Notes: generated by a model from the letters alone, not told the origin. Positions 4,446 to 44,142 are shown, counted from the first letter of the stretch. The stretch: 64,000 bases of DNA from Bacilli bacterium (GCA_017404555.1 JAFRCD010000010.1:8416-72415), one strand, 5' to 3'. Numbers and translations are program-made.

Positions 4446-4711
4446 TTTTTCTAAATAACAAGCACTACAACAAAGGAGAAAACATATGGAAAAACCTAAG
4501 ATATATTTTTCTGAAAAATGGCAAAAAAGGTAAAGTGTAAATCGAACAAAATTAGATTTTTCAGAAAAAAGGAAAATCGCTAACACCACCAAATCGTTAT
4601 ATATCAACGAATAATAGTAAAACAGCAATTTGGAAAAATTCCAAAAAAATGAAAAAAACGAAATTTATGAAAAATAAAAATGTCAAATTTTTATTTTTTT
4701 TAAAAAACCTA

Positions 4712-4740
4712 TTGCAACCAAAAATTACTGGTGCTATACT
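4712..4740 (+). promoter_or_regulatory. Putative nrdD promoter (TTGCAA-17-TGcTATACT)
   Basis: TTGCAA at 4712-4717, a 17-nt spacer ending in TGc, and TATACT at 4735-4740. This is about 30 nt upstream of the nrdD ATG. Confidence 0.55.
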
Positions 4741-4771
4741 CGTATTAAAGTACAAGTGTGGAGGTAAAATT

Positions 4772-7075
4772 ATGAAAGGAAAAGGTGTGGAAGTTTCTAA
4801 TTTAACAGTAGTTAAAAGAAACGGAAAAAAAGTAGATTTTGATGGTTCAAAGATTGCTTTAGCTATCAAAAAAGGATTTGATAATGTCACTGTTACTAAT
4901 GGTGACGAACTAGAAAAAGTTTATACAGAGAAAGATATTCAAACAGTCTATAAGGAAGTCATCAAGGAAATAGAATCCAACTACAATGACAAGGTAAAGA
5001 TTGAACAAATTCAAGATTTGATTGAAGAAGCTTTAAAGAAAAAAGGTTACAACGATGTTTATGAATGCTTTTCTGAATATCGTGAACGTCGTAGTCAATC
5101 AAGAGAATTGTTCTCTGATAAAAAGAAGCTTCATAAGTTCCTAAAGACTATTGAAGGATTAGGACTAAAGAGTGCTAATGAAGATGACAACAAAAGAGAA
5201 AATGCCAATGTTGATGGTGATACTGCTATGGGAACAATGCTTCAATATGGTTCAACAGTATCAAAAGAATTTGCAAAAACATATTTAATGAAAAGCAAAT
5301 TTACTGAAGCCCATGAATCAGGTGCTATTCATATTCATGATATGGATTTCTTAGGAATGGGTACTACTACCTGTATGCAAATAGAACTAGATCGTTTATT
5401 TAAAAATGGTTTTTCTACTGGTCACGGACACTTAAGAGAACCACAAGATATTATGAGTTATTCTGCATTAGCAGCTATTGCTATTCAATCTAATCAAAAT
5501 GATCAACATGGTGGACAAAGTATTCCCGCCTTTGATTTCTATTTAGCACCAGGAGTATTAAAAACATTCAAGAAACAGTTTAAACAACATATCTATGATT
5601 ATTTAGATTATGAAGGAATGTTAGATTATATTAATATGGATACTGTTGCTAAAGAAATAGATAAACTAGATAGTATTACAGTTGATTTAAAGAAGTTTGC
5701 TAGATTCTATAAAGATAGTGATATCGTTAAAAGAGGTTTTGAAAAAGCCTATGAAAAAACACTAGCTAAGACTAATAGAACAACATTCCAAGCTATGGAA
5801 GGATTTGTTCACAACTTAAATACTATGCATTCTCGTGCTGGAGCTCAAGTTCCGTTCTCATCAATTAACTTTGGAACTGATACTTCTCCAGAAGGAAGAA
5901 TGGTAGCTGAAAATTTCCTTTTAGCGACTGATGAAGGATTAGGAAAAGGAGAAACTCCTATCTTCCCAGTATCAATCTTTAAAGTAAAAGAAGGAGTTAA
6001 CTACAATCCTGAAGATCCAAACTATGATTTATTTAAACTAGCATGTCGAGTATCAGCTAAGAGATTATTCCCTAACTTCGCTTTCTTAGATTCTAAGTAT
6101 AATTTAGACTTCTATAAGAAAGGCGATTTTAGAACTGAAGTTAGTTATATGGGATGCCGTACTAGAGTTATTGCTGATGTAACTGATCTTAATAATCAAA
6201 CAACTGGTGGAAGAGGAAACTTATCTTTTACATCAATCAATTTACCAAGAATAGCTATTAAACATGGTATTTGCTTAGGTGAAAGAGATAAAGCCGATAT
6301 GAAAGGCTTCTATAAAGAACTAGAAGAAATGTTAGAATTAGTTCGTGATCAATTATTAGAAAGATTTGAAATACAATGTAGTAAACACTCATATAATTTC
6401 CCATTCTTAATTGGACAAGGAGTTTGGACTAATGGTGATAAACTAGAACCAGGAGATAGAATGAGAAAGATTCTAAAACATGGAACTTTATCAATTGGGT
6501 TCATTGGTTTGGCTGAGACTCTTAAAGCTCTAATTGGTAAACATCATGGTGAAAGTAAAGAAGCTCAAAAGTTAGGATTAGAAATAATTGGTTTCATGCG
6601 TAAGACTTGTGATAAGTTTGCTAAAGAATATAATCTAAACTTTACCCTACTAGCAACCCCAGCTGAGGGATTATCTGGAAGATTTGTTAGTATGGATAAA
6701 GCCATTTATGGAAAGATAAAAGGTATAACTGATAAGACATATTACACTAATTCATTCCATGTGCCAGTTTATTACAACATAAGTATTAAAGATAAACTTA
6801 CACTTGAGGCACCATATCATGCTTTAACTAATGCTGGACATATCTCTTATATTGAATTAGATGGAGATACTGCTAATAATGTAGAAGCATTTGAAAGTGT
6901 TATTAGGTTAATGAAAGAATTAGAAATTGGTTATGGAGCTATTAACCATCCAGTAGATAGAGATCCAGTTTGTGGATACGTTGGGGTAATTAATGATGTA
7001 TGCCCTCTATGTGGAAGAAGAGAATCAGAAGGAGTTCCAATGGAACATCTTCAAGATATAAATTGTAAATGTTAA
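4772..7075 (+). CDS. nrdD: Anaerobic ribonucleoside-triphosphate reductase large chain (class III RNR), lacking the C-terminal glycyl-radical segment
   Basis: GGAGG RBS before ATG 4772. N-terminal ATP-cone 'VVKRNGKKVDFDGSKIALAIKKGF', 'LLATPAEGLSGRF', and a Cys finger 'VCGYVGVINDVCPLCG'. The ORF ends in tandem stops TAA TGA. Confidence 0.9.
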   Translation: MKGKGVEVSNLTVVKRNGKKVDFDGSKIALAIKKGFDNVTVTNGDELEKVYTEKDIQTVYKEVIKEIESNYNDKVKIEQIQDLIEEALKKKGYNDVYECFSEYRERRSQSRELFSDKKKLHKFLKTIEGLGLKSANEDDNKRENANVDGDTAMGTMLQYGSTVSKEFAKTYLMKSKFTEAHESGAIHIHDMDFLGMGTTTCMQIELDRLFKNGFSTGHGHLREPQDIMSYSALAAIAIQSNQNDQHGGQSIPAFDFYLAPGVLKTFKKQFKQHIYDYLDYEGMLDYINMDTVAKEIDKLDSITVDLKKFARFYKDSDIVKRGFEKAYEKTLAKTNRTTFQAMEGFVHNLNTMHSRAGAQVPFSSINFGTDTSPEGRMVAENFLLATDEGLGKGETPIFPVSIFKVKEGVNYNPEDPNYDLFKLACRVSAKRLFPNFAFLDSKYNLDFYKKGDFRTEVSYMGCRTRVIADVTDLNNQTTGGRGNLSFTSINLPRIAIKHGICLGERDKADMKGFYKELEEMLELVRDQLLERFEIQCSKHSYNFPFLIGQGVWTNGDKLEPGDRMRKILKHGTLSIGFIGLAETLKALIGKHHGESKEAQKLGLEIIGFMRKTCDKFAKEYNLNFTLLATPAEGLSGRFVSMDKAIYGKIKGITDKTYYTNSFHVPVYYNISIKDKLTLEAPYHALTNAGHISYIELDGDTANNVEAFESVIRLMKELEIGYGAINHPVDRDPVCGYVGVINDVCPLCGRRESEGVPMEHLQDINCKC

Positions 7076-7099
7076 TGAGGTAAGAAAGGAGATATAATT

Positions 7100-7270
7100 A
7101 TGAAAAAAACAGTAGGTGAAGGAGTAAAATTCGAAAGAATAAGAAGAGTAACAGGATATTTATCAGGCGATGTATCACGTTTCAATAATGCTAAGAGAAC
7201 TGAAGAACATGACCGTGTTAAACATACTGGTGTTAAAGAATTAATCGCTAATGCAAAGTGTGAAAAATAA
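7100..7270 (+). CDS. Stand-alone 56-aa glycyl-radical module of NrdD
   Basis: AAAGGAG RBS (7085-7091) lies 8 nt before the ATG. 'FERIRRVTGYLSGDVSRFNNAKRTEEHDRVKH' matches the NrdD C-terminal radical motif (RxxGYL...N.[AG]K..E...RVKH). It is in the same frame as nrdD, and its stop overlaps the nrdG ATG (TAATG). Confidence 0.75.
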   Translation: MKKTVGEGVKFERIRRVTGYLSGDVSRFNNAKRTEEHDRVKHTGVKELIANAKCEK

Positions 7271-7830: not shown

Positions 7831-7834
7831 TAAA

Positions 7835-7866
7835 AAACACAGCTATAAGTTGTGTTTTATTTTTGG
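7835..7866 (+). terminator. Rho-independent terminator (copy A of a repeated hairpin)
   Basis: ACACAGC/GTTGTGT stem (one G-U pair), loop TATAA, then a T-run. Confidence 0.65.
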
Positions 7867-7876
7867 CTAAATACAA

Positions 7877-7905
7877 TTGCTATATTTATTAATCTTCGGT
7901 ATAAT
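7877..7905 (+). promoter_or_regulatory. Putative promoter TTGCTA-17-TATAAT
   Basis: Counted spacer of 17 nt. It lies upstream of the LicD-family gene. Confidence 0.55.
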
Positions 7906-7932
7906 TTAATTGGTTAAAAAAGGAGTACTTAA

Positions 7933-8802
7933 ATGAAAAATTTTGGAACATATGATGAAAAAACATTGAAAATGCTACAAAAGGTAGAACTAGAAATGTT
8001 GAAAGATATTAATAAAGTGTGTGAAAAATATGATATTAAATACTTTGCCTTAGATGGAACAGGTATAGGAGCTATGAGACACAAGGGCTTTATTCCTTGG
8101 GATGATGACATTGATTTAAGATTCCTAGAAAAAGATGTAAGTAAATTTGTCAAATGTATGCAAGAGGAAATGCCAGATAAATATTACTTTGTTAATGAAA
8201 CTAGCTTTAAAAATTATCCTCTATCTTTTACTAAAATGTGCAAAAAGGATACTATCTTTGTTGAACATGCTACAGCAAATTCAGGAGTAGAGATAGGTAT
8301 ATTTATTGATATTGTTCCAATGGTATATGTTGACGATAATGAAAAAATAAGAAATAAGAAATTACTAAAATCGTGGTATATATATAAATTAGGGGTTTTA
8401 GCGGCAGTTAAAAATCCGGTTTTAAGTTTTGGAGGAATTAAAGCAAAAATAGTAGTGGCCGGATGCTATATAATTCATTATTTATTAAAACTACTACATT
8501 TGGATTCTGGGTTCTTTTTCAAAAAAGGTTATAAAGTTGCACTTGCAAATAAAAAAACTAACACAATCGCATCACTAAATACAGTATATAAACTAACAAG
8601 TATATATTCTGTTAACGATGTGTTTCCAGTAGTAAAAACCAAGTTTGAAGACACTTATGTTTATGTGCCCAAAGAATGTGATAAGTTGCTAAGAATTTAC
8701 TTTGGGGATTATATGGAATTGCCGCCTGAGGAAAAAAGGCATAACCATTGTCCTAAAAAATTAGTATTCGATAAAGAAAAAGAAAGCGAGAATAAAGTTT
8801 AA
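7933..8802 (+). CDS. licD: LicD-family phosphotransferase (phosphocholine/phospho-alcohol transferase to glycopolymers)
   Basis: 'LKMLQKVELEMLKDINKVCEKYDIKYFALDGTGIGAMRHKGFIPWDDDIDL' is the characteristic LicD N-terminal region with the DDDID motif. Confidence 0.8.
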   Translation: MKNFGTYDEKTLKMLQKVELEMLKDINKVCEKYDIKYFALDGTGIGAMRHKGFIPWDDDIDLRFLEKDVSKFVKCMQEEMPDKYYFVNETSFKNYPLSFTKMCKKDTIFVEHATANSGVEIGIFIDIVPMVYVDDNEKIRNKKLLKSWYIYKLGVLAAVKNPVLSFGGIKAKIVVAGCYIIHYLLKLLHLDSGFFFKKGYKVALANKKTNTIASLNTVYKLTSIYSVNDVFPVVKTKFEDTYVYVPKECDKLLRIYFGDYMELPPEEKRHNHCPKKLVFDKEKESENKV

Positions 8803-8903
8803 AGCCAATGTAGAACTAAAAGGAGGCTATAATATCAATTATAGGCTCTTTTTTCTACCTTTCATGTGGCCTGGAAATATGCTATAATATAGATGGTGAT
8901 ATT

Positions 8904-10028
8904 ATGAAAAACGTTGGTGTTGTGAGTTACAACATTAGATGCAATTTTACAAATTATGGTTCTGCCCTACAATCATGGGCGTTGAAAGAAACTATTGAGA
9001 AAATAGGTGGAGACAAACTGCATGCAAAACTAGTTGATTATTGTCCAGACGCCCACAGAGAGAGCGATCCCTTAAATCCTTATAAAAACATGTGGGATAA
9101 GGATGCAACGGCCAGAAAGAACTGTGAATTAACAATGCCAGCTATAAGAGAGAATTATAAAAAGTTTGAAGATTTTTATAACACACAATTTGATCGAACT
9201 AAAAAAATGTATGTTTCAGAAAACTTTGACAGTATTGTAGAAGAAGAAAACATAAAAAAATTTGTATGCGGCGCTGATACCATCTTTTGCGTTGATGAAT
9301 TTGGTATAGATGATGTTTTTTATGCCAACAAAAAGTGCATGAAGGAAAATTATACCTTTTCTTATGCTGCTAGTTTTGGAGATTCTCATTTTACGGAAGA
9401 AACTTATAAGCTGTTGGATCAAAGATTAACTAATTTTAAAGCAATTGGAATCCGTGAAAGTGAAATGGTTGATTATATTAAAGAACGTACAGTAGTCGAT
9501 GTAGAAAGGGTTATTGATCCAACTCTATTGTTAGAGGCTGATGATTACGAAAAGATAACAACTAAGGAGGTTCCTAAAGAAAAATACGTTTTATTATATA
9601 CAAGACGTGGTAACCAAATTATGGAAGATTATGCCGATATGATTGCCAATAAACTTCACTGCAAAGTCATTGAAATAAGTTTGAAAGCAACTAATAAAGA
9701 TAAACATGAAATGAGATATGATGCTGGTGTTGAGGAATTCCTAAATCTAGTAAAAAATGCTGAATATGTAGTAACTAATTCATATCATGGAATGATATTC
9801 TGTGTTCAATTTAGAAAGGACTTTGTTATTTTTTCTCGAGAACAATGCGACACTAAAATTGAAGAATTATTAAATATTATGGGTCTCCGAGATAGATTAT
9901 TAGTCACAGGGAAAGAAAGATTTAAAGAAGAGATAGACTATGATGCTGTTCACAACAATATTAAATCAGAAAAAGAAAAGAGTATTAAGTTTTTACAAAA
10001 ACAATTAAAAAAGGTAATAGGTGAGTAA
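8904..10028 (+). CDS. Polysaccharide pyruvyl transferase family protein
   Basis: N-terminal 'VGVVSYNIRCNFTNYGSALQSWAL' and a C-terminal 'VVTNSYHGMIF' pattern typical of PS_pyruv_trans proteins. It has its own extended -10 TGCTATAAT at 8880-8888. Confidence 0.7.
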   Translation: MKNVGVVSYNIRCNFTNYGSALQSWALKETIEKIGGDKLHAKLVDYCPDAHRESDPLNPYKNMWDKDATARKNCELTMPAIRENYKKFEDFYNTQFDRTKKMYVSENFDSIVEEENIKKFVCGADTIFCVDEFGIDDVFYANKKCMKENYTFSYAASFGDSHFTEETYKLLDQRLTNFKAIGIRESEMVDYIKERTVVDVERVIDPTLLLEADDYEKITTKEVPKEKYVLLYTRRGNQIMEDYADMIANKLHCKVIEISLKATNKDKHEMRYDAGVEEFLNLVKNAEYVVTNSYHGMIFCVQFRKDFVIFSREQCDTKIEELLNIMGLRDRLLVTGKERFKEEIDYDAVHNNIKSEKEKSIKFLQKQLKKVIGE

Positions 10029-10029
10029 T

Positions 10030-11727
10030 ATGAATAATAAATATCTTAGTAATAAAATACTAATCGAATTATTAAAAAAATATGGAATTAAAAAGTTAGT
10101 CCTATCATCTGGCTGTAGAAATGTGCCGTTTGTTTCAAATGTTGAAACTGATCCTGACTTCGAATGCTTTTCAGTAATTGATGAAAGAAACGCTGCCTTC
10201 TTTGGGATGGGGTTGAGTGAGGAGGCTAAAGAACCAGTTGCTATTGCCTGTACAAGTGGTACGGCTGCTTCTAATTATGTTTCTGGTGTTACAGAAGCAT
10301 ATTATTCTAAAGTGCCTTTAGTCGTTTTAACTTTTGATAGACATCCTTATATGTATAATCAATTGGAGACCCAAAAAATTGATCAGGAATCTATTTTTGA
10401 ATCTATTACTAAAAAAAGTGTAACATTACCGATTATTAAAGACGAAGAAGATGTTTGGTATTGTAATAGACTTATTAATGAAGCTTTTATAGAAATGACA
10501 AGGCATGGTGTAGGACCAGTACATATTAATGTTCCATTAGCTGGCGATATGAATAGCTTGTTTAATGATGATAGTAATAAAATGTCTGAAAAGGGAATGA
10601 AAAAAATTAATTATGTTTCTACAAATAATATGGTTTGGTTAAATAAAGTAGAAGAACTTCTTAAAACAAAAAAAGTACTCTTTATTCTAGGACAAGATTC
10701 CCTTTTAACAGATAAAGAAAAAGAAAAATTACGTAAATTTGCCGAAATTATGGACTGCCCTATACTGACAGATAATTTATCAAATTTTAAAAGTGAGCAT
10801 AATATTCTTGCAGGTCCCATTATTAAAGCTTTGAATTCTAAGACTATAAACGTTTTATTACCTGAGATAGTAATATCATATGGAAATAACATGCAAGAAA
10901 GAATAAAGGAAGTATTACGGGGGAAGAATATCAAACATTGGTATATTACACCTGATGGTAAAATTAGGGATTGTTTTAAAGCGTTAGATACAATATTTGA
11001 ATGTAGTATAAATGAATTTTTAGATATGTTTAATAAAAATTTTGAGAATAAGTATAAGCCAGATAAAAAATACTTTGAGAAATGGAAAAATATATCTGAA
11101 AGTATAAAACTACCAGAAATGCCATTTACTAATTTTTATGTTGCTAAAGAATTTTCTAAAATAATACCACATGATTCACTACTGCATTTGAGCATATTGA
11201 ATGCTACTAGACAGATGCAATTTTTCAATTTAGATGAATCGATAAAAGTATTTAGCAATGTTAATGCGTTTGGAATAGATGGGTGCTTGCCTACTTTTAT
11301 GGGACAAGCATATGCAACTGATAATTTAGCCTTTATTATGATAGGAGATTTAAGCTTCTTCTATGGTATGAATGCGTTATCGATAAAGCACAGGAAGAAG
11401 AATATTAGAGTATTAATGATTAATAATGGTGGTGGAGCCGAATTTCATATTCAACCTGATTCTAATAGCATCCCAACCATTGACTTGCATATTGGAGCGG
11501 CGCATAACAGGACTGCCAAAGAATGGGCAATTTCATCAGGATATAAATATTTAACCGCCAACGATAAAGAATCATTTGATAAGAATATTAAAGAATTCAT
11601 TTCTTCTGATAGTAAGGAGCCAATATTCTATGAAGTTTTTACGGATATGAAAACTGATGGAGAATTTTGTCTATCAGTGTATAGATATATGGAAGAAAGT
11701 ATAAAAGATTTGTTAAAAGAGGATTAA
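10030..11727 (+). CDS. Thiamine-diphosphate-dependent enzyme, MenD (SEPHCHC synthase)-like
   Basis: AGGTGA RBS, with ATG 10030 one nt after the upstream stop. PYR domain 'SSGCRNVPF..ERNAAFFGMG..CTSGTAASNY..LTFDRHP'. ThDP/Mg motif 'GDLSFFYGMNAL...NNGGGAEF'. Confidence 0.65.
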   Translation: MNNKYLSNKILIELLKKYGIKKLVLSSGCRNVPFVSNVETDPDFECFSVIDERNAAFFGMGLSEEAKEPVAIACTSGTAASNYVSGVTEAYYSKVPLVVLTFDRHPYMYNQLETQKIDQESIFESITKKSVTLPIIKDEEDVWYCNRLINEAFIEMTRHGVGPVHINVPLAGDMNSLFNDDSNKMSEKGMKKINYVSTNNMVWLNKVEELLKTKKVLFILGQDSLLTDKEKEKLRKFAEIMDCPILTDNLSNFKSEHNILAGPIIKALNSKTINVLLPEIVISYGNNMQERIKEVLRGKNIKHWYITPDGKIRDCFKALDTIFECSINEFLDMFNKNFENKYKPDKKYFEKWKNISESIKLPEMPFTNFYVAKEFSKIIPHDSLLHLSILNATRQMQFFNLDESIKVFSNVNAFGIDGCLPTFMGQAYATDNLAFIMIGDLSFFYGMNALSIKHRKKNIRVLMINNGGGAEFHIQPDSNSIPTIDLHIGAAHNRTAKEWAISSGYKYLTANDKESFDKNIKEFISSDSKEPIFYEVFTDMKTDGEFCLSVYRYMEESIKDLLKED

Positions 11728-11728
11728 T

Positions 11729-12763
11729 ATGCAAGAAAAAAGTATTTTAATATTGGGTGGCACCGGTGCCATGGGAACATCTTTAGTAGAGATATTGTCA
11801 CATGATGATAAATATAGTGTCTTTGTGACTACACGGCAAAGCAACCATAATGATTATAAAAATATAAAATATATAATTGGAAATGCTAGAGAAGAAGCTT
11901 TCATTCAGCAGGTATGTTCAAAAAAGTATGATGTAATTGTTGATTTCATGAACTATAATTTAGATGAATTTGAGAATTATCATACTGCACTTCTTAATGC
12001 TGCTGATCACTATTTGTTCTTAAGCTCTTGCCGGGTTTTCAGCAACGCTGAATTAATAGATGAAAGCACCCCTAGACTGTTAGAAACAACTAATGACACG
12101 GAGTTTTTAAAAACAAATAGATATGCATTAAGAAAGGCTCGAGAAGAGGATATCCTAACAAATTCTCCATATAATAATTGGACTATTATAAGACCATATA
12201 TTACATATAGTAATAGACGGTTACAACTAGGAATCTATGAGAAAGAAGAATGGTTATATAGATTATTAAACAATAGGCCATTAATATTACGAAAAGAAAT
12301 TTTAGATAAGTATACAACATTAACATATGGTAAAGATGTAGCATTAGGTATATATAATATTATTAATAATGAAAAATCATTAGGGCAAAAGATAAATATT
12401 GTCACAGAGGAATATACTACATGGCAAGACATATTGGATAAATATAAAGAAGTATTAAATCGCGAATTAAATATTGAACCAGAAATCTATTATGAAGAAA
12501 ATTTAGATGAGATTGAAATGTTGTTTGAGGGTGGTTATAACACTAAATATGACCGCTTATGGAATCGTCGATTTAAAAATGATAAAACAAAAGAATATTG
12601 TGGGGATATTGACTACAAAAAACCTTTACCAGGGATTGAACAATGCTTAGTAGAGCTAATTAACGATTGGAAAAAAGGTAAGGAAGTATTTAGAACAATA
12701 AATAGCGAATACGAGGACAAAATGAATAACTTGTGTAATCAAAAAACAAAGAGAAAGAGATGA
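11729..12763 (+). CDS. NAD(P)-dependent epimerase/dehydratase family (extended SDR) protein
   Basis: Rossmann motif 'ILILGGTGAMGTSL' and a candidate YxxxK 'YALRK'. Confidence 0.7.
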   Translation: MQEKSILILGGTGAMGTSLVEILSHDDKYSVFVTTRQSNHNDYKNIKYIIGNAREEAFIQQVCSKKYDVIVDFMNYNLDEFENYHTALLNAADHYLFLSSCRVFSNAELIDESTPRLLETTNDTEFLKTNRYALRKAREEDILTNSPYNNWTIIRPYITYSNRRLQLGIYEKEEWLYRLLNNRPLILRKEILDKYTTLTYGKDVALGIYNIINNEKSLGQKINIVTEEYTTWQDILDKYKEVLNRELNIEPEIYYEENLDEIEMLFEGGYNTKYDRLWNRRFKNDKTKEYCGDIDYKKPLPGIEQCLVELINDWKKGKEVFRTINSEYEDKMNNLCNQKTKRKR

Positions 12764-12767
12764 TAAA

Positions 12768-13841
12768 ATGATTAACTTTACAATTGGGCCAGTACAATCT
12801 AGCAAAGAAATAAGAAGAATTGGTGGCGAACAAGTACCATATTTTAGAACGCAAGAGTTTTCTAATTTGATGCTTGAAAATGAAAAACTAATTAAAAAAT
12901 TTATGGATGCTACTGAAGAAAGCAAAGTAGCATTTATAACTGGATCAGGGACAGCTTCCATGGAAGCAACTATTATGAATTTATTAACTAAAGAAGATAA
13001 AGCTTTAATTGTAAATGGTGGTGGTTTTGGACATAGATTTGTTGAGCTTTGTGAACTATATGAAGTTCCTTGTGATCAAATAATTCTAGATGTAGGACAA
13101 CCATTAACCGAAGAAATATTAAATAAATATAATCCTAGCGATTATAGTACCTTTATTGTAAACGTTCATGAAACCACGACTGGTGTTCACTATGATTTAA
13201 AATTAATTCATGATTTTTGTAAAAGAAACAGTTTGTTTTTAATAGTAGATGCTATCAGTTCATTTTTAGCGGATGAATTAAGTATGAAAGATGATGGAAT
13301 AGATGTGGTTATAACTGGATCTCAGAAAGCCTTGGCTTGTCCTCCAGGAATATCCATTATAACGTTATCTGAGAAAGCTGTGGAAAGGGTATATCAGAAT
13401 AACCCTAAGTGCCTATATTTAAACTTAAAAGAGGCCTTAGAAAATGCTAAAAGGGGACAGACACCTTTTACTCCAGCAGTAAGCATATTAAGACAAATAA
13501 ACGCTAGATTAAAACAAATTGATAATGCTGGTGGAACTGCATCAGAAGTAAAGAGAATATCAGCTCTAGCGAAATATTTCCGAGAAAGTATCAAGGATTT
13601 ACCATTTGAATATGTAACTAATTCACCATCTAATGCCATTACAGCACTTTCACCATTAAATGCTAGTGCCAATGATATATTTTTAGAACTAAAAGATAAT
13701 TATGGTATTTGGATATGTCCAAATGGTGGTGAATTAAAAGATAAGGTATTCAGAGTTGGGCATATAGGGGATCTAACTAATGAAGACTATGATAAATTAA
13801 TAGAGGCCTTCAAAGATTTACAAAAAAAAGGATTAATCTAG
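12768..13841 (+). CDS. Class V (AGXT/PhnW/SerC-like) pyridoxal-phosphate aminotransferase
   Basis: 'GSGTASMEA', 'DAISS' and 'TGSQKALACPPG' (PLP lysine context). Confidence 0.75.
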   Translation: MINFTIGPVQSSKEIRRIGGEQVPYFRTQEFSNLMLENEKLIKKFMDATEESKVAFITGSGTASMEATIMNLLTKEDKALIVNGGGFGHRFVELCELYEVPCDQIILDVGQPLTEEILNKYNPSDYSTFIVNVHETTTGVHYDLKLIHDFCKRNSLFLIVDAISSFLADELSMKDDGIDVVITGSQKALACPPGISIITLSEKAVERVYQNNPKCLYLNLKEALENAKRGQTPFTPAVSILRQINARLKQIDNAGGTASEVKRISALAKYFRESIKDLPFEYVTNSPSNAITALSPLNASANDIFLELKDNYGIWICPNGGELKDKVFRVGHIGDLTNEDYDKLIEAFKDLQKKGLI

Positions 13842-13854
13842 GAAGTGAATTATT

Positions 13855-15195
13855 ATGAAAAAAGTAATAACTTATGGTACATATGACCTGCTTCATTATG
13901 GTCACATCAGGCTTTTAGAAAGAGCTAAAGAGTTAGGAGATTATTTAATAGTTGGGGTAACATCAGATGATTTTGACAAGAGAAGAGGCAAGATAAACGT
14001 TCAGCAATCCCTAATTGAAAGAGTACAAGCAGTAAAAAGCACTGGTTTAGCTGATGAGATAATAATTGAAGAATATGAGGGCCAAAAAATAGATGATATT
14101 TGTAACTATGGTATAGATATATTTACTGTTGGATCAGACTGGGTAGGCAAATTTGATTATTTAAAGGAGTATTGTGAGGTAATATATTTAGATAGGACCG
14201 AAGGTGTTTCCAGCACTGAGATTAGGAGTAAAAATAGATCTCTTAATCTAGGAATAGTAGGTTCATTTAACTTTATTCAAAAACACTTAAACGAATCAAA
14301 ATATGTAAATGGGTTAGAAATAACTAAAATCAACTCTGAAGATAAAATACCTAAACACATGCTAAAAGAATACAATCTAACAGTAGAAGATGATTATGAT
14401 AAATTATTAGATAGTGTTGACGCTATTTATATTGCAACTAATCCTGATAAGCATTACGAAATAATAAAGAAAGCTATTGAAAAAAAGAAACATGTATTAT
14501 GTGAATCACCAATAACTTTGAAAAAAGAGGAATGTAAGAAATTGTTAGCTCTGGCTGATAAAAAAGGTGTTGTTTTAATGGAAGCTATTAAAACCAATTA
14601 TGCTAATGCATATATGCGCTTGATGCTACTTGCTAAAACAGGGGTAGTAGGGAAAATAGTTTCGGTTGATGCAACATGTACCAGTTTAAGACAATTAGAA
14701 GAATTAGGAGAAAAGAAGATAACTAATTATCAAAATAGTATCTGTGCTTGGGGACCAACTGCTATGCTACCAGTATTTCAATTGCTAGGAACTAAGTATA
14801 AAGAAAAACATATTACATCTTTATTGAGTGATAAGAATAAGAATTTTGATTTGTTCACAAAGATAAGCTTTGATTATAAAGATGCAACAGCAACAATCAA
14901 AGTAGGAAAGGGAGTAAAGTCAGAAGGGGAATTGATAATATCAGGTACAAAAGGGTATATCTATGTTCCAGCACCATGGTGGAAAATAGATTACTTTGAG
15001 GTAAGGTATGAAGATCCTGCCAAAAACAGAAGATATTTCTACCAATTAGAAGGCGAAGGGATACGATATGAATTAATTAGTTTCTTAAGGGCTATTAACA
15101 AGAAAACTAAGGTTGGTGGAATAAAGAAAGACACCACATTGGCTATCGTCGAAGTAATTGAAGATTTTTATAATAAAAAGAAAAATACTATATAG
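13855..15195 (+). CDS. Bifunctional glycerol-3-phosphate cytidylyltransferase (TagD-like) / Gfo-Idh-MocA oxidoreductase fusion
   Basis: The N-terminal ~130 aa, 'KVITYGTYDLLHYGHIRLLERAKELGDYLIVG...GSDWVGKFDYLKEYCEVIYLDRTEGVSSTEIR', closely resemble my recollection of B. subtilis TagD (HxGH motif). The C-terminal ~310 aa carry a Gfo/Idh/MocA-type Rossmann fold ('LNLGIVGSFNF', 'HVLCESP'). Confidence 0.75.
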   Translation: MKKVITYGTYDLLHYGHIRLLERAKELGDYLIVGVTSDDFDKRRGKINVQQSLIERVQAVKSTGLADEIIIEEYEGQKIDDICNYGIDIFTVGSDWVGKFDYLKEYCEVIYLDRTEGVSSTEIRSKNRSLNLGIVGSFNFIQKHLNESKYVNGLEITKINSEDKIPKHMLKEYNLTVEDDYDKLLDSVDAIYIATNPDKHYEIIKKAIEKKKHVLCESPITLKKEECKKLLALADKKGVVLMEAIKTNYANAYMRLMLLAKTGVVGKIVSVDATCTSLRQLEELGEKKITNYQNSICAWGPTAMLPVFQLLGTKYKEKHITSLLSDKNKNFDLFTKISFDYKDATATIKVGKGVKSEGELIISGTKGYIYVPAPWWKIDYFEVRYEDPAKNRRYFYQLEGEGIRYELISFLRAINKKTKVGGIKKDTTLAIVEVIEDFYNKKKNTI

Positions 15196-15213
15196 TAAGA
15201 ATGGGGCGAGAGA

Positions 15214-15573
15214 ATGGAAGATATAAAAATAATTGACCAATTTATGGATGAAAGAGAATTTAGAAACTATATAGTAAAACTATTAGATGAAAATGGTTTT
15301 ACTGATATTTCTATTGAGGATGCTCGTCTTAGTGATGAGGAACCAAAAAATAATAATGATTTAATAGCTAAAAAAGGTAAAGAAAGATATACTATTCAGA
15401 CTTTCTTAAATAAGGAAATAGGTTCCAAAGAAATAAAAGAAACATTAAGGGATATGAAAGAAGAATATGCTTCTAAAGCATTAATAATTACCAATAAGGA
15501 AGTATCTGAAGAAGTAATTAAAGAAGCAGAAGAAGCTGGCATAGAAATTTGGGATCGAAAAAAGTTTAAATAA
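15214..15573 (+). CDS. Small restriction-endonuclease-fold (Mrr_cat-like) protein
   Basis: Pattern 'GFTDI...NDLIAKKGKERYTIQTF...ALIITNKEVSEEVIKEAEEAGIEIWDRKKF' resembles the Mrr catalytic domain. The usual Q-x-K lysine is replaced (QTF). Confidence 0.45.
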   Translation: MEDIKIIDQFMDEREFRNYIVKLLDENGFTDISIEDARLSDEEPKNNNDLIAKKGKERYTIQTFLNKEIGSKEIKETLRDMKEEYASKALIITNKEVSEEVIKEAEEAGIEIWDRKKFK

Positions 15574-15603
15574 AAAGCACAACTATTAAGTTGTGTTTTT
15601 ATT
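15572..15603. terminator. Bidirectional terminator (copy B of the repeated hairpin)
   Basis: CACAACT/AGTTGTG perfect stem, loop ATTA, flanked by A- and T-runs. It sits between convergent genes. Confidence 0.7.
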
Positions 15604-15799
15604 CATCACGATAAGTATATTCCTTTAGCTTTTTCTTTAGTTTAAGTTCTTCTTTCCTAGTAGCTTTATCATAATAAGAAAACTCTGCTGATCTAGCTGT
15701 TTTTACTTGTTTACGAGTTTTAACTTTAGGAACTTTTATTATCCTATCTTCTTTCGGATCTTTCTTAGGAGTAACATCATAACTTTTAGGTTTAGTCAT
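15599..15799 (-). CDS. Small highly basic hypothetical protein (66 aa)
   Basis: Lys/Arg-rich ORF. Only coding potential and context support it. Confidence 0.4.
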   Translation of the reverse strand: MTKPKSYDVTPKKDPKEDRIIKVPKVKTRKQVKTARSAEFSYYDKATRKEELKLKKKLKEYTYRDE

Positions 15800-44060: not shown

Positions 44061-44142
44061 AAACTTGTCTTTTTTTGCTCTTTCCAAACAGCCAGTTCTA
44101 GTATATAATGATACTACATGGTAGTATATGGAAGGAGAAATG

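What the first reader, a model, noticed from the sequence alone, without database searches (positions are those of the whole stretch)
7877..15603. LicD-centred glycopolymer decoration cassette with an enzyme set that matches no pathway I can name
Six tightly packed, co-oriented genes are present:
- a LicD phosphotransferase
- a polysaccharide pyruvyl transferase
- a full-length MenD-like ThDP enzyme
- an extended SDR
- a class V aminotransferase
- a TagD-type cytidylyltransferase fused to a Gfo/Idh/MocA oxidoreductase

A small Mrr-fold protein follows them. Gaps from 8904 to 15195 are 1-14 nt, which implies one operon.

LicD plus a cytidylyltransferase implies a CDP-activated phospho-alcohol head group that is transferred onto a wall polysaccharide or teichoic acid. 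The oxidoreductase, aminotransferase, ThDP enzyme and SDR imply that the head group is chemically elaborated first.

It is not the choline pathway (no LicA/LicC type). It is not ribitol (no TarI/J pair). It is not the 2-aminoethylphosphonate pathway (no PEP mutase, and the decarboxylase is the wrong size).

This is a candidate pathway for a new CDP-linked amino-polyol or keto-acid-derived wall substituent.
Basis: partly seen in the sequence, partly recalled or inferred. Interest (0 to 1): 0.65.

Follow-up and report, generated by a model that had tools for sequence, protein, structure and literature searches.

The report
Two-module surface-glycan phospho-amino-alcohol decoration cassette
An uncultured cattle-gut bacterium carries a seven-gene operon that probably attaches a CDP-activated phospho-amino-alcohol (most likely serinol phosphate) to a surface glycan and then elaborates it using a repurposed relative of the vitamin-K enzyme MenD; no paper in the held library describes either part.

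Summary
Seven co-oriented genes lie between a promoter-like site (7877) and a terminator hairpin (15578-15603), and every domain call was confirmed.

The cassette is two recurrent modules, not one pathway.

- **Module A** is LicD, an aminotransferase, and a TagD-like cytidylyltransferase fused to a Gfo/Idh/MocA-like domain. The fusion occurs in at least 552 species, including Bacteroidales and Methanobrevibacter. An aminotransferase sits next to the fusion in 64 of 79 loci.
- Two unrelated aminotransferase families (PhnW-like and HisC-like) fill that slot.
- Cytidylyltransferase-aminotransferase, acetyltransferase-aminotransferase and LicD-aminotransferase fusions exist. One lies on a phage-like contig with no Gfo domain.
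- The Gfo-like domain lacks the family's catalytic Lys and Tyr/His in all 91 sequences examined.
- Best reading: keto-phosphate to amino-alcohol phosphate (probably DHAP to serinol-P), then the CDP derivative, then LicD transfer.
- **Module B** is a pyruvyltransferase-like protein, a MenD-clade ThDP enzyme and an SDR. It occupies the slot that holds an N-acetyltransferase or a pyruvyltransferase plus Fe-S flavoprotein in other loci.
- The MenD-like clade has lost the 2-oxoglutarate-binding Arg. True MenDs in men operons keep it.
- Its chemistry is inferred, not shown.

Homology to the pneumococcal CDP-2-glycerol genes could not be tested.

The parts
7834..7858 (+). Intrinsic terminator-like hairpin ending the upstream nrdD/nrdG unit. 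It marks the left border of the cassette.
   Evidence: 11-bp stem followed by a T-run; sequence read.
7877..7905 (+). Sigma-70-type promoter-like site, TTGCTA-17-TATAAT, 28 nt upstream of the LicD start codon.
   Evidence: 10 of 12 matches. This is a consensus match only. The region as a whole has no more such matches than shuffled sequence.
7933..8802 (+). LicD-family phosphotransferase (289 aa). Predicted to transfer the phospho-head group from its CDP donor to a glycan acceptor.
   Evidence: Pfam LicD, E = 9.6e-37, full length. Weak similarity to FKRP, a CDP-ribitol phosphotransferase. A LicD lies within six genes of the cytidylyltransferase-Gfo fusion in 49 of 79 species loci.
8904..10028 (+). 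Polysaccharide-pyruvyltransferase-like protein (374 aa), module B. Predicted PEP-dependent enolpyruvyl/pyruvyl transferase.
   Evidence: Pfam PS_pyruv_trans, E = 2.3e-29. It scores far below the CsaB equivalog cutoff (29 against 213 bits). No solved relative. It is present in 17 of 17 non-redundant close MenD-like loci.
10030..11727 (+). MenD-clade ThDP enzyme (565 aa from the ATG at 10030; 568 aa from the GTG at 10021), module B. Predicted carboligase with a donor other than 2-oxoglutarate.
   Evidence: NCBIfam menD at 274 bits against a cutoff of 244. Best PDB matches are MenD structures, E = 1e-51. The clade signature keeps Arg32, Arg106, Arg409 and Phe490 but changes Arg428 to Val and Ile489 to Glu. 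True MenDs in men operons keep all of these residues.
11729..12763 (+). Extended-type SDR (344 aa) with GxxGxxG and YxxxK, module B. Predicted ketoreductase.
   Evidence: Pfam Epimerase 2e-8 and NmrA 1e-6. No PDB relative. An SDR is present in about half of the close loci. Other loci carry a classical adh_short SDR between the pyruvyltransferase and the ThDP enzyme instead.
12768..13841 (+). Class V PLP aminotransferase (357 aa), module A. Predicted to convert a keto-phosphate into an amino-alcohol phosphate.
   Evidence: Pfam Aminotran_5, 2e-20. Nearest NCBIfam model is PhnW/AepZ, 158 bits against a cutoff of 361. PDB 3F0H, annotated only as 'Aminotransferase', matches at E = 8e-137. The DAISS and SQK (PLP-lysine) motifs are readable. 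An aminotransferase is adjacent to the cytidylyltransferase-Gfo fusion in 64 of 79 species loci.
13855..14232 (+). TagD-like cytidylyltransferase domain of the fusion protein (residues 1-126).
   Evidence: PDB 1COZ (B. subtilis TagD), E = 1e-39. HxGH and RTEGxSxT motifs are kept. NCBIfam g3p_cytidyltrns scores 118 bits against a cutoff of 165. Subfamily motifs RGK and EEYEGQK replace TagD's QKQK and EKNWEQK. They are shared with cytidylyltransferase-aminotransferase fusions.
14239..15195 (+). Gfo/Idh/MocA-like domain of the fusion protein (residues 129-446). It is degenerate and lacks the canonical catalytic residues.
   Evidence: Pfam GFO_IDH_MocA, 1.5e-21. ESP replaces EKP. Thr replaces the Tyr of the second motif in 3E9M, the best-matching structure. 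Position 218 is never Lys in 91 of 91 sequences.
15214..15573 (+). Small Mrr_cat (restriction-endonuclease fold) protein, 119 aa. A co-oriented passenger, not part of the conserved set.
   Evidence: Pfam Mrr_cat, 2.6e-14. Found only in the window's own contigs L001 and L002, not in the 80 related loci tested.
15578..15603 (.). Hairpin CACAACT-ATTA-AGTTGTG flanked by T-runs on both strands. It is a likely bidirectional terminator and the right border of the cassette.
   Evidence: One search lists it on the minus strand. The sequence shows TTTTTATT after the stem on the plus strand.

Best explanation
The cassette is a composite of two recurrent, horizontally mobile modules that together decorate a surface glycan made elsewhere in the genome.

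**Module A** (LicD, class V aminotransferase, TagD-like cytidylyltransferase fused to a Gfo-like domain)
1. The aminotransferase converts a phosphorylated carbonyl compound of central metabolism, most likely dihydroxyacetone phosphate, into an amino-alcohol phosphate, most likely serinol phosphate.
2. The cytidylyltransferase domain activates it with CTP to the CDP derivative.
3. LicD transfers the phospho-amino-alcohol onto a sugar hydroxyl.
4. The Gfo-like domain has lost the catalytic residues of its family. It probably has a structural or binding role, not a redox role.

**Module B** (pyruvyltransferase-like protein, MenD-clade ThDP enzyme, SDR)
This module sits in the slot that other loci fill with an N-acetyltransferase, or with a pyruvyltransferase plus an FrhB-like Fe-S flavoprotein.
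1. I infer that the pyruvyltransferase puts a PEP-derived enolpyruvyl group on the head group, on its amine or its free hydroxyl.
2. The MenD-like enzyme then adds an acyl-anion equivalent from a 2-keto acid other than 2-oxoglutarate to the beta-carbon of that group. This is a Stetter-type 1,4-addition, the same regiochemistry as hydride addition by a MurB-like reductase.
3. The SDR reduces the new ketone.

**What is shown and what is inferred**
- Shown: domain identities, operon borders, co-occurrence statistics, fusions and residue signatures.
- Inferred: every substrate, the order of steps and the final structure.
For: **Module A**
- The fusion protein has more than 8000 relatives at 90% clustering. 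It occurs in at least 552 species genomes across Firmicutes, Bacteroidales, Elusimicrobia, Spirochaetes, Planctomycetes and Methanobrevibacter, at about 60% identity.
- An aminotransferase lies within six genes in 69 of 79 loci and directly adjacent in 64 of 79. LicD lies within six genes in 49 of 79.
- The aminotransferase slot is filled by two unrelated families. One is class V, nearest to PhnW/AepZ. The other is class I/II, scoring 274 and 236 bits on hisC (cutoff 277) and also matching CobD. All three named enzymes (PhnW, HisC, CobD) act on a small substrate that carries a phosphate or phosphonate group. This is my knowledge of the families.
- Precedent: C. jejuni Cj1437 transaminates DHAP to (S)-serinol-P, and Cj1436 decarboxylates L-serine-P to ethanolamine-P (PMC11800397).
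- Fusions link the steps: cytidylyltransferase-aminotransferase without any Gfo domain (P0250, P0288, P0333), GNAT-aminotransferase (P0492, P0521), LicD-aminotransferase (P0348) and aminotransferase-NTP_transf_3 (P0289).
- P0250 lies on a phage-like contig. In the Pfam annotation of that contig it is flanked only by a DUF4422-LicD gene and a GNAT gene. This is a minimal self-contained module.
- A GNAT lies nearby in 14 of 79 loci, which fits an amine product.
- The Gfo-like domain has no Lys at the EKP position in 91 of 91 sequences. It has Thr, Ile, Ala or Val at the position aligned with the Tyr of the second motif in 3E9M. The third Rossmann Gly is present in only 14 of 91.
- Relative to TagD, the cytidylyltransferase pocket gains acidic residues (Lys and Trp become Glu in EEYEGQK). 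This fits a cationic substrate, but it is an inference.

**Module B**
- In 17 non-redundant loci with a close MenD-like protein and at least 3 kb of flank, a pyruvyltransferase is present in 17, an aminotransferase in 17, the cytidylyltransferase-Gfo fusion in 14 and an SDR in 9.
- In the species set, 12 of 13 pyruvyltransferases are followed by an FrhB-like protein (10) or a ThDP enzyme (2).
- More distant MenD-like proteins (35-43% identity) still sit beside a classical SDR (12 of 17 non-redundant loci), and in 5 of those 17 beside a pyruvyltransferase-like gene, in glycan loci without the aminotransferase or cytidylyltransferase.
- Residue signature: Arg32 and Arg106 (isochorismate recognition), Arg409 and Phe490 are kept. 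Arg428, which mainly binds alpha-ketoglutarate, becomes Val, Ile, Leu or Ala. Ile489 becomes Glu.
- Four control sequences with the full MenD signature lie in menF-menD-menB-menC-menE operons.
Against: - No experiment and no transcript data bear on any step.
- The invariable fusion of the cytidylyltransferase to a well-conserved Gfo-like domain suggests that domain does something. Loss of canonical residues does not prove loss of catalysis.
- The cytidylyltransferase domain shows strong similarity to genuine glycerol-3-phosphate cytidylyltransferases (E = 1e-39 to B. subtilis TagD), so glycerol-3-phosphate remains a possible substrate.
- If the pneumococcal Gtp proteins are homologues, the product in that system is glycerol-2-phosphate, not an amine.
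- An SDR is present in only about half of the close loci, so ketoreduction is not obligatory.
- Module B co-occurs with the aminotransferase in 17 of 17 close loci. This also fits a model in which the ThDP enzyme feeds the aminotransferase.
- The acceptor glycan is unknown. No wall-polymer locus lies in the 64-kb window.
Confidence: 0.42

Rival explanations
1. The TagD domain makes CDP-glycerol from glycerol-3-phosphate. The fused Gfo domain oxidises C2 to CDP-dihydroxyacetone. The aminotransferase then makes CDP-serinol. This would parallel the oxidoreductase/aminotransferase pairs WbpB/WbpE and GnnA/GnnB that act on UDP-sugars. The end product is the same as in my best explanation, but the route differs and the Gfo domain is active.
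For: - The cytidylyltransferase and Gfo-like domains are fused in every one of the 79 species loci and in more than 8000 clusters.
- The cytidylyltransferase domain is the closest relative of TagD in the PDB (E = 1e-39).
- The Gfo-like domain is highly conserved, with many invariant residues.
- An aminotransferase followed by an N-acetyltransferase mirrors the known oxidise-aminate-acetylate logic of UDP-sugar pathways. This is my knowledge.
Against: - The EKP lysine and the Tyr/His of the second motif are absent in 91 of 91 sequences. The glycine-rich loop is degenerate.
- Cytidylyltransferase-aminotransferase fusions of the same cytidylyltransferase subfamily lack any Gfo domain. One lies on a phage-like contig whose Pfam annotation shows no dehydrogenase.
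- HisC-like and PhnW-like enzymes normally act on free phospho- or phosphono-carbonyls, not on nucleotide-linked ones. This is my knowledge.
Confidence: 0.2
2. Module A is an orthologue of the pneumococcal CDP-2-glycerol system (wchX plus gtp1, gtp2, gtp3). It would install glycerol-2-phosphate, not an amine, and the aminotransferase-fold protein would have a non-transaminase role. The core would then be an already characterised pathway.
For: - Pneumococcal loci carry wchX (glycerol phosphotransferase) followed by gtp1, gtp2 and gtp3 for CDP-2-glycerol (PMC1391919 and PMC5581491).
- From my recollection of Wang et al. 2010 (J Bacteriol 192:5506, not held), the three enzymes were reported as a reductase, a cytidylyltransferase and a phosphotransferase.
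- I also recall, without certainty, that they belong to the Gfo/Idh/MocA, TagD-like and class V aminotransferase-like families.
Against: - Homology could not be tested because no pneumococcal sequence was reachable with these tools.
- Two unrelated aminotransferase families are interchangeable in the slot.
- The PLP lysine and aspartate motifs are intact.
- GNAT-aminotransferase fusions and frequent neighbouring GNATs point to an amine product.
Confidence: 0.12
3. AEP-like logic. In loci that carry module B, the ThDP enzyme works as a decarboxylase on a keto acid produced with the help of the pyruvyltransferase-like enzyme. The aminotransferase aminates the resulting aldehyde or ketone. The cytidylyltransferase and LicD then act. 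On this reading the six genes do form one linear pathway to a new head group.
For: - An aminotransferase co-occurs with the close MenD-like clade in 17 of 17 loci.
- Locus L090 has TagF-like, pyruvyltransferase, HisC-like aminotransferase, NTP-transferase and ThDP genes with no cytidylyltransferase-Gfo fusion.
- The clade-specific Glu at the Ile489 position recalls catalytic glutamates of ThDP decarboxylases. This is my knowledge and a loose analogy.
- The nearest NCBIfam model to the aminotransferase is the AEP transaminase.
Against: - The same aminotransferase orthologues (54-76% identity) work with the cytidylyltransferase-Gfo fusion in most loci that lack any ThDP enzyme.
- More distant MenD-like proteins occur with an SDR, and sometimes a pyruvyltransferase-like gene, but without an aminotransferase or cytidylyltransferase.
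- No PEP mutase or other obvious keto-acid-forming enzyme is present.
- PS_pyruv_trans enzymes are not known to make free 2-keto acids. This is my knowledge.
Confidence: 0.15
4. The ThDP gene is an ordinary menD for menaquinone synthesis that merely happens to lie in this operon, as its automatic annotation would say.
For: It passes the NCBIfam menD equivalog cutoff. Public records name its relatives SEPHCHC synthase.
Against: - Three of seven strictly conserved MenD active-site residues are replaced, including Arg428, the main alpha-ketoglutarate-binding arginine.
- True MenDs recovered in the same scan keep them and sit in men operons.
- The clade is always next to a pyruvyltransferase-like gene in glycan loci.
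Confidence: 0.02

Closest known systems
LicD/CDP-alcohol phosphotransfer decorations (pneumococcal Lic phosphocholine system; FKTN/FKRP with CDP-ribitol)
   Same: A cytidylyltransferase makes a CDP-activated small alcohol phosphate, and a LicD-family enzyme transfers the phospho-alcohol to a glycan. The LicD domain is full length, and FKRP is the only PDB relative.
   Different: There is no choline kinase (LicA) and no LicC-type or IspD-type nucleotidyltransferase. The cytidylyltransferase is TagD-type, and the head group is predicted to be an amine made by a dedicated aminotransferase.
Pneumococcal CDP-2-glycerol pathway (wchX, gtp1, gtp2, gtp3; serotypes 15, 23)
   Same: It is a four-gene set of a phosphotransferase, a cytidylyltransferase and two accessory enzymes for a C3 phospho-alcohol side group on a capsule. 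The enzyme families are possibly the same, but this is recollection and was not tested.
   Different: Here the cytidylyltransferase and Gfo-like parts are fused. The Gfo-like part lacks catalytic residues. The comparative evidence points to an amine, not glycerol. Homology itself is unverified.
C. jejuni HS:2 serinol-phosphate/ethanolamine-phosphate supply (Cj1437, Cj1436)
   Same: A PLP enzyme turns DHAP into (S)-serinol phosphate, or L-serine-P into ethanolamine-P, for capsule decoration (PMC11800397). The HisC/CobD-like aminotransferases that replace the class V enzyme in 23 of 79 loci are candidates for the same chemistry.
   Different: In C. jejuni the amino-alcohol phosphate is amide-linked to glucuronate by an ATP-grasp ligase and then dephosphorylated. 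Here it is predicted to be CDP-activated and phosphodiester-linked by LicD.
2-Aminoethylphosphonate tailoring (Ppm, Ppd, PhnW/AepZ, PntC, LicD-like transferases)
   Same: The logic of a ThDP enzyme, a class V aminotransferase, a cytidylyltransferase and a transferase is similar. The aminotransferase's nearest curated model is PhnW/AepZ. Aminotransferase-nucleotidyltransferase fusions exist in both systems.
   Different: There is no PEP mutase. The ThDP enzyme is a full-length three-domain MenD-clade protein, not a Ppd. The cytidylyltransferase is TagD-type, not LicC-type. The aminotransferase scores well below the PhnW cutoffs (158 against 361 bits).
MenD (SEPHCHC synthase), the natural Stetter-type ThDP enzyme of menaquinone synthesis
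   Same: The three-domain fold is the same. It passes the menD HMM cutoff. It keeps the cofactor glutamate, Arg32, Arg106, Arg409 and Phe490.
   Different: Arg428 becomes an aliphatic residue, Ile489 becomes Glu and Leu493 is variable. The gene lies in glycan loci beside a pyruvyltransferase-like gene, not in a men operon.
MurA/MurB (enolpyruvyl transfer followed by flavin-dependent reduction to a lactyl ether)
   Same: This is a proposed functional analogy for the pyruvyltransferase + FrhB-like pair, and by extension the pyruvyltransferase + MenD-like pair. In each case a PEP-derived enolpyruvyl group would be attacked at its beta-carbon.
   Different: There is no sequence relationship. The analogy is inference only, and nothing was tested.

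Membership tests
LicD phosphotransferase family (PF04991) | Full-length match to the LicD profile above the gathering score | tested here: met
   127.7 bits against a cutoff of 22.6, profile positions 1-227 of 227.
Glycerol-3-phosphate cytidylyltransferase TagD/TarD (TIGR01518 equivalog) | Score above the curated equivalog cutoff | tested here: not met
   118.2 bits against a cutoff of 165.4. It is nevertheless the closest PDB relative of TagD (1COZ, E = 1e-39).
Glycerol-3-phosphate cytidylyltransferase TagD/TarD (TIGR01518 equivalog) | HxGH and RTEGISTT nucleotide-binding motifs | tested here: met
   HYGH and RTEGVSST are present and invariant in the family.
Glycerol-3-phosphate cytidylyltransferase TagD/TarD (TIGR01518 equivalog) | Use of sn-glycerol-3-phosphate as substrate | not testable with these tools
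   The motifs around TagD Lys44/Lys46 and Trp74 differ (RGK, EEYEGQK). Their meaning for substrate choice is inferred.
Gfo/Idh/MocA NAD(P)-dependent oxidoreductases | N-terminal Rossmann-domain profile match | tested here: met
   PF01408, 77.7 bits against a cutoff of 24.
Gfo/Idh/MocA NAD(P)-dependent oxidoreductases | Catalytic lysine of the EKP motif | tested here: not met
   The window has ESP. Position 218 is Ser, Ala, Thr, Pro or Leu and never Lys in 91 of 91 fusion proteins. The four PDB homologues aligned all have EKP.
Gfo/Idh/MocA NAD(P)-dependent oxidoreductases | Asp and Tyr/His of the GGx3Dx3(Y/H) motif | tested here: not met
   The aligned segment is WGPTAMLP. The position aligned with the Tyr of 3E9M is Thr, Ile, Ala, Val or Leu across the family.
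Gfo/Idh/MocA NAD(P)-dependent oxidoreductases | GxGxxG dinucleotide-binding loop | tested here: inconclusive
   The first two glycines are invariant. The third is Gly in only 14 of 91, and the residue before it is Glu or Asp in 62 of 91.
MenD (SEPHCHC synthase, TIGR00173) | Score above the curated equivalog cutoff | tested here: met
   274.1 bits against a cutoff of 244.2.
MenD (SEPHCHC synthase, TIGR00173) | The strictly conserved active-site set Arg32, Arg106, Arg409, Arg428, Ile489, Phe490, Leu493 (B. subtilis numbering, PMC2914249) | tested here: not met
   Four of seven are kept. Arg428 becomes Val, Ile489 becomes Glu and Leu493 becomes Gln. The first two changes hold across the whole glycan-locus clade.
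MenD (SEPHCHC synthase, TIGR00173) | Genomic association with other men genes | tested here: not met
   The cassette has no men genes. Control MenDs from the same scan sit in menF-menD-menB-menC-menE operons. The rest of the genome is not available.
Polysaccharide pyruvyl transferases (PF04230; CsaB equivalog TIGR03609) | Pfam family match; CsaB equivalog score | tested here: inconclusive
   The Pfam match is met (103.6 bits against 25.3). The CsaB equivalog is not met (29.3 against 213.1). Whether it forms a ketal or an enolpyruvyl product cannot be told from sequence.
2-Aminoethylphosphonate pathway (Ppm, Ppd, PhnW/AepZ) | PEP mutase present; aminotransferase above the PhnW/AepZ cutoff | tested here: not met
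   No cassette protein matches a PEP mutase. The aminotransferase scores 157.7 bits against 360.8 (AepZ) and 127.4 against 400.8 (PhnW).
Lic1 phosphocholine pathway (LicA, LicB, LicC, LicD) | Choline kinase LicA and LicC-type cytidylyltransferase next to LicD | tested here: not met
   Neither family appears among the cassette proteins.
Pneumococcal CDP-2-glycerol pathway (WchX, Gtp1-3) | Sequence homology of the aminotransferase and the cytidylyltransferase-Gfo fusion to Gtp3, Gtp2 and Gtp1 | not testable with these tools

The most novel reading that the evidence does not exclude
A clade of MenD-derived ThDP enzymes has been recruited to glycan tailoring as 'Stetterases'. They would add an acyl-anion equivalent to the beta-carbon of an enolpyruvyl group installed by a pyruvyltransferase-like partner. 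The result would be a previously undescribed carboxy-oxo/hydroxy-alkyl substituent, for example a 2-linked 4-hydroxypentanoate-type group. Here it would sit on a CDP-serinol-derived phospho-amino-alcohol head group that is itself undescribed as a phosphodiester decoration. The pyruvyltransferase + FrhB-like pair would be the hydride-adding (lactyl-forming) counterpart of the same logic.
Probability: 0.22. Interest if true: 0.82.

Novelty: new variant of a known kind. Interest (0 to 1): 0.6.

Why it matters
- The cytidylyltransferase-Gfo-like fusion and its aminotransferase partner are among the most widely shared surface-decoration genes of gut and rumen microbes. They occur in hundreds of species across bacterial phyla, in methanogenic archaea and on at least one phage-like contig.
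- They are annotated only generically, and I found no biochemical description in the held literature.
- If they install a cationic or N-capped phospho-amino-alcohol, they would define a common, transferable determinant of surface charge. That could affect phage adsorption and immune recognition in the gut.
- The MenD-like clade would be mis-annotated by NCBI's menD model, since the window protein scores above its cutoff, and public records already name relatives SEPHCHC synthase. This could create false positives in menaquinone-pathway predictions for gut anaerobes.
- If its inferred chemistry holds, it would be a rare new natural Stetter-type reaction and a new class of acidic glycan substituent.

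Tried and rejected
1. **Literature.** Ten full-text searches covered LicD + cytidylyltransferase + Gfo + aminotransferase; LicD + MenD + pyruvyl transferase; CDP-serinol, phosphoserinol and related terms; CDP-2-glycerol and gtp1-3; and MenD + pyruvyltransferase. None returned a paper describing either module. The key pneumococcal papers are not held: Wang 2010 (PMC2950487) and Ramirez & Tomasz 1998 (PMC107572). Bentley 2006 has no held supplements.
2. **Reaching pneumococcal Gtp3 by sequence.** I tried the 50%-identity representative search plus cluster look-up. The ten best representatives carry no organism names.
3. **Transcript evidence for the operon.** The only runs holding the sequence are low-depth gut or bovine metagenome contigs of unknown library type. 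Nothing can be said about co-transcription.
4. **A wall-polymer or teichoic-acid locus nearby that would name the acceptor.** The flanks are housekeeping genes: nrdD/nrdG, prfB, FemAB, FtsEX, PcsB-like, UvrAB, Lgt, WhiA, GAPDH, PGK and Spo0A.
5. **The inositol (IolG/IolD-like) idea** for the Gfo + ThDP pair. I rejected it because the ThDP enzyme belongs to the MenD clade, not IolD, and the Gfo domain lacks catalytic residues.
6. **Mrr-fold protein as part of the system.** I rejected this because it is absent from all related loci.
7. **PDB sequence searches** for the pyruvyltransferase-like protein and the SDR found nothing useful.

Full report
**What is in the window**

Seven co-oriented ORFs occupy 7933-15573:

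| Gene | Coordinates |
|---|---|
| LicD | 7933-8802 |
| Polysaccharide-pyruvyltransferase-like protein | 8904-10028 |
| Three-domain ThDP enzyme | 10030-11727 (or 10021 if the GTG start is used) |
| Extended-type SDR | 11729-12763 |
| Class V aminotransferase | 12768-13841 |
| TagD-like cytidylyltransferase fused to a Gfo/Idh/MocA-like domain | 13855-15195 |
| 119-aa Mrr_cat protein | 15214-15573 |

A terminator-like hairpin closes nrdG at 7834-7858. A TTGCTA-17-TATAAT site follows at 7877-7905. A hairpin with T-runs on both strands sits at 15578-15603.

From the pyruvyltransferase gene to the Mrr gene the gaps are 1-18 nt. The 101-nt gap after LicD holds a weak AT-rich hairpin and a second -10-like box. 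I could not obtain transcript data, so 'one operon' rests on anatomy alone.

**Host and surroundings**

- The same 76.7-kb contig was assembled from an ENA metagenome. The sequence recurs in gut and bovine-gut metagenomes.
- G+C is about 30%.
- The flanks are housekeeping genes: nrdD/nrdG, a lipoprotein, an FNT channel, prfB, YitT, FemAB, FtsEX, a PcsB-like peptidase, UvrB/UvrA, Lgt, WhiA, GAPDH, PGK and Spo0A.
- The host is thus an uncultured, wall-bearing Firmicute of a spore-forming lineage.
- No glycopolymer backbone locus lies in the window, so the acceptor is encoded elsewhere.

**The cassette is two modules: module A**

I anchored a scan of one genome per species on the cytidylyltransferase-Gfo fusion. 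It found at least 552 species, and 80 loci were fetched. These included Lachnospiraceae, Oscillospiraceae, uncultured Bacilli, Bacteroidales/Prevotellaceae, Elusimicrobia, Spirochaetes, a planctomycete and several Methanobrevibacter, all at about 60% identity. The protein has more than 8000 clusters at 90% identity.

In 79 usable loci:
- An aminotransferase lies directly beside the fusion in 64 and within six genes in 69.
- A LicD lies within six genes in 49.
- A GNAT acetyltransferase lies nearby in 14.
- A pyruvyltransferase-like gene is present in 12 loci (13 genes): 10 are followed by an FrhB-like 4Fe-4S flavoprotein and 2 by a MenD-like ThDP enzyme.

The surrounding genes are glycosyltransferases, flippases, Wzy/O-antigen-ligase-like proteins, TagF-like phosphotransferases and, once, flagellar genes.

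Module A (LicD + aminotransferase + cytidylyltransferase-Gfo-like fusion) is therefore an independent, highly mobile unit of surface-glycan loci.

**The cassette is two modules: module B**

I anchored a metagenome scan on the ThDP enzyme. The order pyruvyltransferase, [classical SDR], ThDP enzyme, [extended SDR], aminotransferase, cytidylyltransferase-Gfo appeared in more than 30 loci.

Among 17 non-redundant loci with at least 3 kb of flank on both sides:
- A pyruvyltransferase is present in 17.
- An aminotransferase is present in 17.
- The cytidylyltransferase-Gfo fusion is present in 14, and a LicC/RmlA-type nucleotidyltransferase replaces it once.
- An SDR of either kind is present in 9.

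ThDP relatives at 35-43% identity still sit beside a classical adh_short SDR in 12 of 17 non-redundant loci, and beside a pyruvyltransferase-like gene in 5 of those 17. These glycan loci have no aminotransferase and no cytidylyltransferase.

Module B (pyruvyltransferase-like + MenD-like + SDR) is therefore separable from module A.

**What module A most likely does**

Four results bear on the chemistry.

1. *Two aminotransferase families share the slot.* Class V enzymes like the window's occupy it in 46 loci. Their nearest curated model is the AEP transaminase PhnW/AepZ, and PDB 3F0H, annotated only as 'Aminotransferase', matches at E = 8e-137. Class I/II enzymes that score almost at the hisC cutoff and also match CobD occupy it in 23 loci. 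Non-orthologous replacement by another aminotransferase argues that the step really is an amino transfer. PhnW, HisC and CobD all act on a small substrate carrying a phosphate or phosphonate group.

2. *Fusions tie the steps together.* They are cytidylyltransferase-aminotransferase (P0250, P0288, P0333), GNAT-aminotransferase (P0492, P0521), LicD-aminotransferase (P0348) and aminotransferase-nucleotidyltransferase (P0289). The cytidylyltransferase halves carry the same subfamily motifs as the window protein.

3. *A minimal version exists without the Gfo-like domain.* P0250 lies on a phage-like contig that carries a terminase fragment and many small ORFs. Its immediate neighbours are a DUF4422-LicD gene and a GNAT gene, and the Pfam annotation of the contig shows no dehydrogenase.

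4. *The Gfo-like domain lacks its family's catalytic residues.* The EKP lysine is Ser, Ala, Thr, Pro or Leu in 91 of 91 fusion proteins. The position aligned with the Tyr of the second motif in 3E9M is Thr, Ile, Ala, Val or Leu. The third glycine of the dinucleotide loop is present in only 14 of 91.

Together these results favour the following order. The aminotransferase first makes an amino-alcohol phosphate from a central keto-phosphate. DHAP to serinol-P is the obvious candidate and has a precedent in C. jejuni Cj1437 (PMC11800397). The cytidylyltransferase then makes the CDP derivative, and LicD transfers it.

The cytidylyltransferase pocket gains acidic residues relative to TagD: EEYEGQK replaces EKNWEQK. 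This fits a cationic substrate but proves nothing.

The alternative order, CDP-glycerol oxidised by the Gfo domain and then aminated, gives the same product. I keep it as the main rival because the fusion is invariable and the Gfo-like domain is strongly conserved.

**What module B most likely does**

The ThDP protein passes NCBI's menD equivalog cutoff (274 bits against 244). Public records name its relatives SEPHCHC synthase.

I aligned it to B. subtilis MenD (PDB 2X7J) and read it against the mutagenesis study of that enzyme (PMC2914249):
- It keeps Arg32 and Arg106, which are critical for isochorismate recognition.
- It keeps Arg409 and Phe490.
- Arg428, the residue that mainly binds alpha-ketoglutarate, is replaced by Val.
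- Ile489 is replaced by Glu.
- Leu493 is replaced by Gln.

The Arg428-to-aliphatic and Ile489-to-Glu changes hold across all close and intermediate relatives and across 12 of the 16 most distant relatives. Four sequences from the same scan carry the full MenD signature. Of the three with flanking sequence, L154 and L159 were checked and lie in men operons (L159 in a full menF-menD-menB-menC-menE operon); L161 has an unchecked gene upstream. This is a useful internal control.

The protein is therefore a neofunctionalised MenD paralogue. It probably still binds a carboxylate-bearing acceptor but no longer uses 2-oxoglutarate as donor.

In these loci the pyruvyltransferase-like gene is, with one exception (L068), followed by an FrhB-like Fe-S flavoprotein or by the MenD-like enzyme. 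Characterised ketal-forming pyruvyltransferases need no partner, to my knowledge.

My inference is as follows:
1. The pyruvyltransferase leaves an enolpyruvyl group.
2. The flavoprotein would reduce that group to a lactyl group, the MurA/MurB logic.
3. The MenD-like enzyme would instead add an acyl-anion equivalent to the same beta-carbon, which is MenD's own Stetter chemistry.
4. The SDR would reduce the resulting ketone.

Classical and extended SDRs appear in this module in different loci. The SDR is missing in about half of the close loci, so this last step is optional.

In loci that also carry module A, module B occupies the position that a GNAT occupies elsewhere. This suggests it caps the amine or the free hydroxyl of the head group. 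All of this is inference from co-occurrence and residue patterns.

**Comparison with known systems**

- The overall logic is the known LicD/CDP-alcohol phosphotransfer decoration.
- It is not the Lic1 choline system, the TarI/TarJ ribitol system or the AEP system. The defining genes are absent and the curated cutoffs are not met.
- The pneumococcal wchX-gtp1-gtp2-gtp3 genes for CDP-2-glycerol may be homologues of module A. I recall them as oxidoreductase-like, TagD-like and aminotransferase-like. I could reach neither the paper nor the sequences, so this remains an untested lead.
- If the homology is real, the aminotransferase-fold protein in that system has been assigned a non-transaminase role. 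That sits uneasily with the comparative evidence here.
- I found no description of a MenD-like or pyruvyltransferase-based tailoring module in the held literature.

**Verdict**

- It needs three corrections: there are two modules, not one pathway; the 'oxidoreductase' is degenerate; and the Mrr-fold gene is a passenger.
- The finding is a new variant of a known kind of system. It contains two uncharacterised and widely distributed parts.
- Interest is moderate to high (0.6), limited by the absence of any experimental or transcript evidence.

Noticed in passing
window 4649-7270: The anaerobic ribonucleotide reductase appears split. The 808-aa NrdD ORF ends at 7075. A separate 56-aa ORF (7100-7270) carries the glycyl-radical motif (FERIRRVTGYLSG). 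The same split is called on two independent contigs (L001, L002).
   Followed up: partly
L171 6004-10266: A phage-like contig (terminase large-subunit fragment, a T4 Y07B-like protein, many small ORFs) carries a minimal three-gene decoration module: a DUF4422-LicD fusion, a cytidylyltransferase-aminotransferase fusion and a GNAT. This suggests a phage-encoded surface-glycan modification.
   Followed up: partly
L173 1472-7459: Two TagF-like (Glyphos_transf) genes flank a GNAT-aminotransferase fusion and a cytidylyltransferase-Gfo fusion. This hints at a teichoic-acid-like polymer built from the (N-acetyl)amino-alcohol phosphate, not a side-group decoration.
   Followed up: no
L089 1-11817: The LicD, cytidylyltransferase-Gfo, pyruvyltransferase, MenD-like and aminotransferase set lies directly downstream of fliD/fliS and three TagF-like or unannotated proteins of about 500 aa. 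This raises the possibility of flagellin modification.
   Followed up: no
L085 4538-6906 and 9 other loci (e.g. L013, L022, L061, L076): There is a recurrent pair of a polysaccharide-pyruvyltransferase-like gene and an FrhB/FdhB-like 4Fe-4S flavoprotein. In the species set, 12 of 13 pyruvyltransferase-like genes have such a partner or a MenD-like enzyme; one (L068) stands alone. This may be a lactyl (1-carboxyethyl)-forming pair analogous to MurA/MurB.
   Followed up: partly
L033, L048, L062, L072 (Methanobrevibacter) and L031, L034, L038, L050-L054, L059 (Bacteroidales/Prevotella): Archaeal and Bacteroidales genomes carry cytidylyltransferase-Gfo and aminotransferase genes about 60% identical to the Firmicute ones. 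This points to wide horizontal transfer within gut and rumen communities.
   Followed up: no
L145 7641-8558: A tandem double TagD-like cytidylyltransferase (two CTP_transf_like domains, like eukaryotic ECT) lies next to a distant MenD-like gene.
   Followed up: no
window 15214-15573 and 15599-15799 (-): A 119-aa stand-alone Mrr_cat protein, which also gives a weak hit to an 'inactive restriction endonuclease' family, lies next to a convergent 66-aa lysine-rich ORF. The two share the bidirectional terminator. Neither is found in related loci.
   Followed up: no
window 8803-8903: The 101-nt gap between LicD and the pyruvyltransferase gene holds an AT-rich hairpin (CTATAAT-ATCA-ATTATAG) followed by a T-run and a TATAAT box. 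These may be a partial terminator and an internal promoter separating LicD from the downstream genes.
   Followed up: no
window 37205-38584 and 44989-46251: Two paralogous proteins of 420-460 aa give only weak DUF7601 matches. They lie near Spo0A (44128-44907) and an Ig-like/polysaccharide-deacetylase surface protein (46312-47568). Their function is unknown.
   Followed up: no
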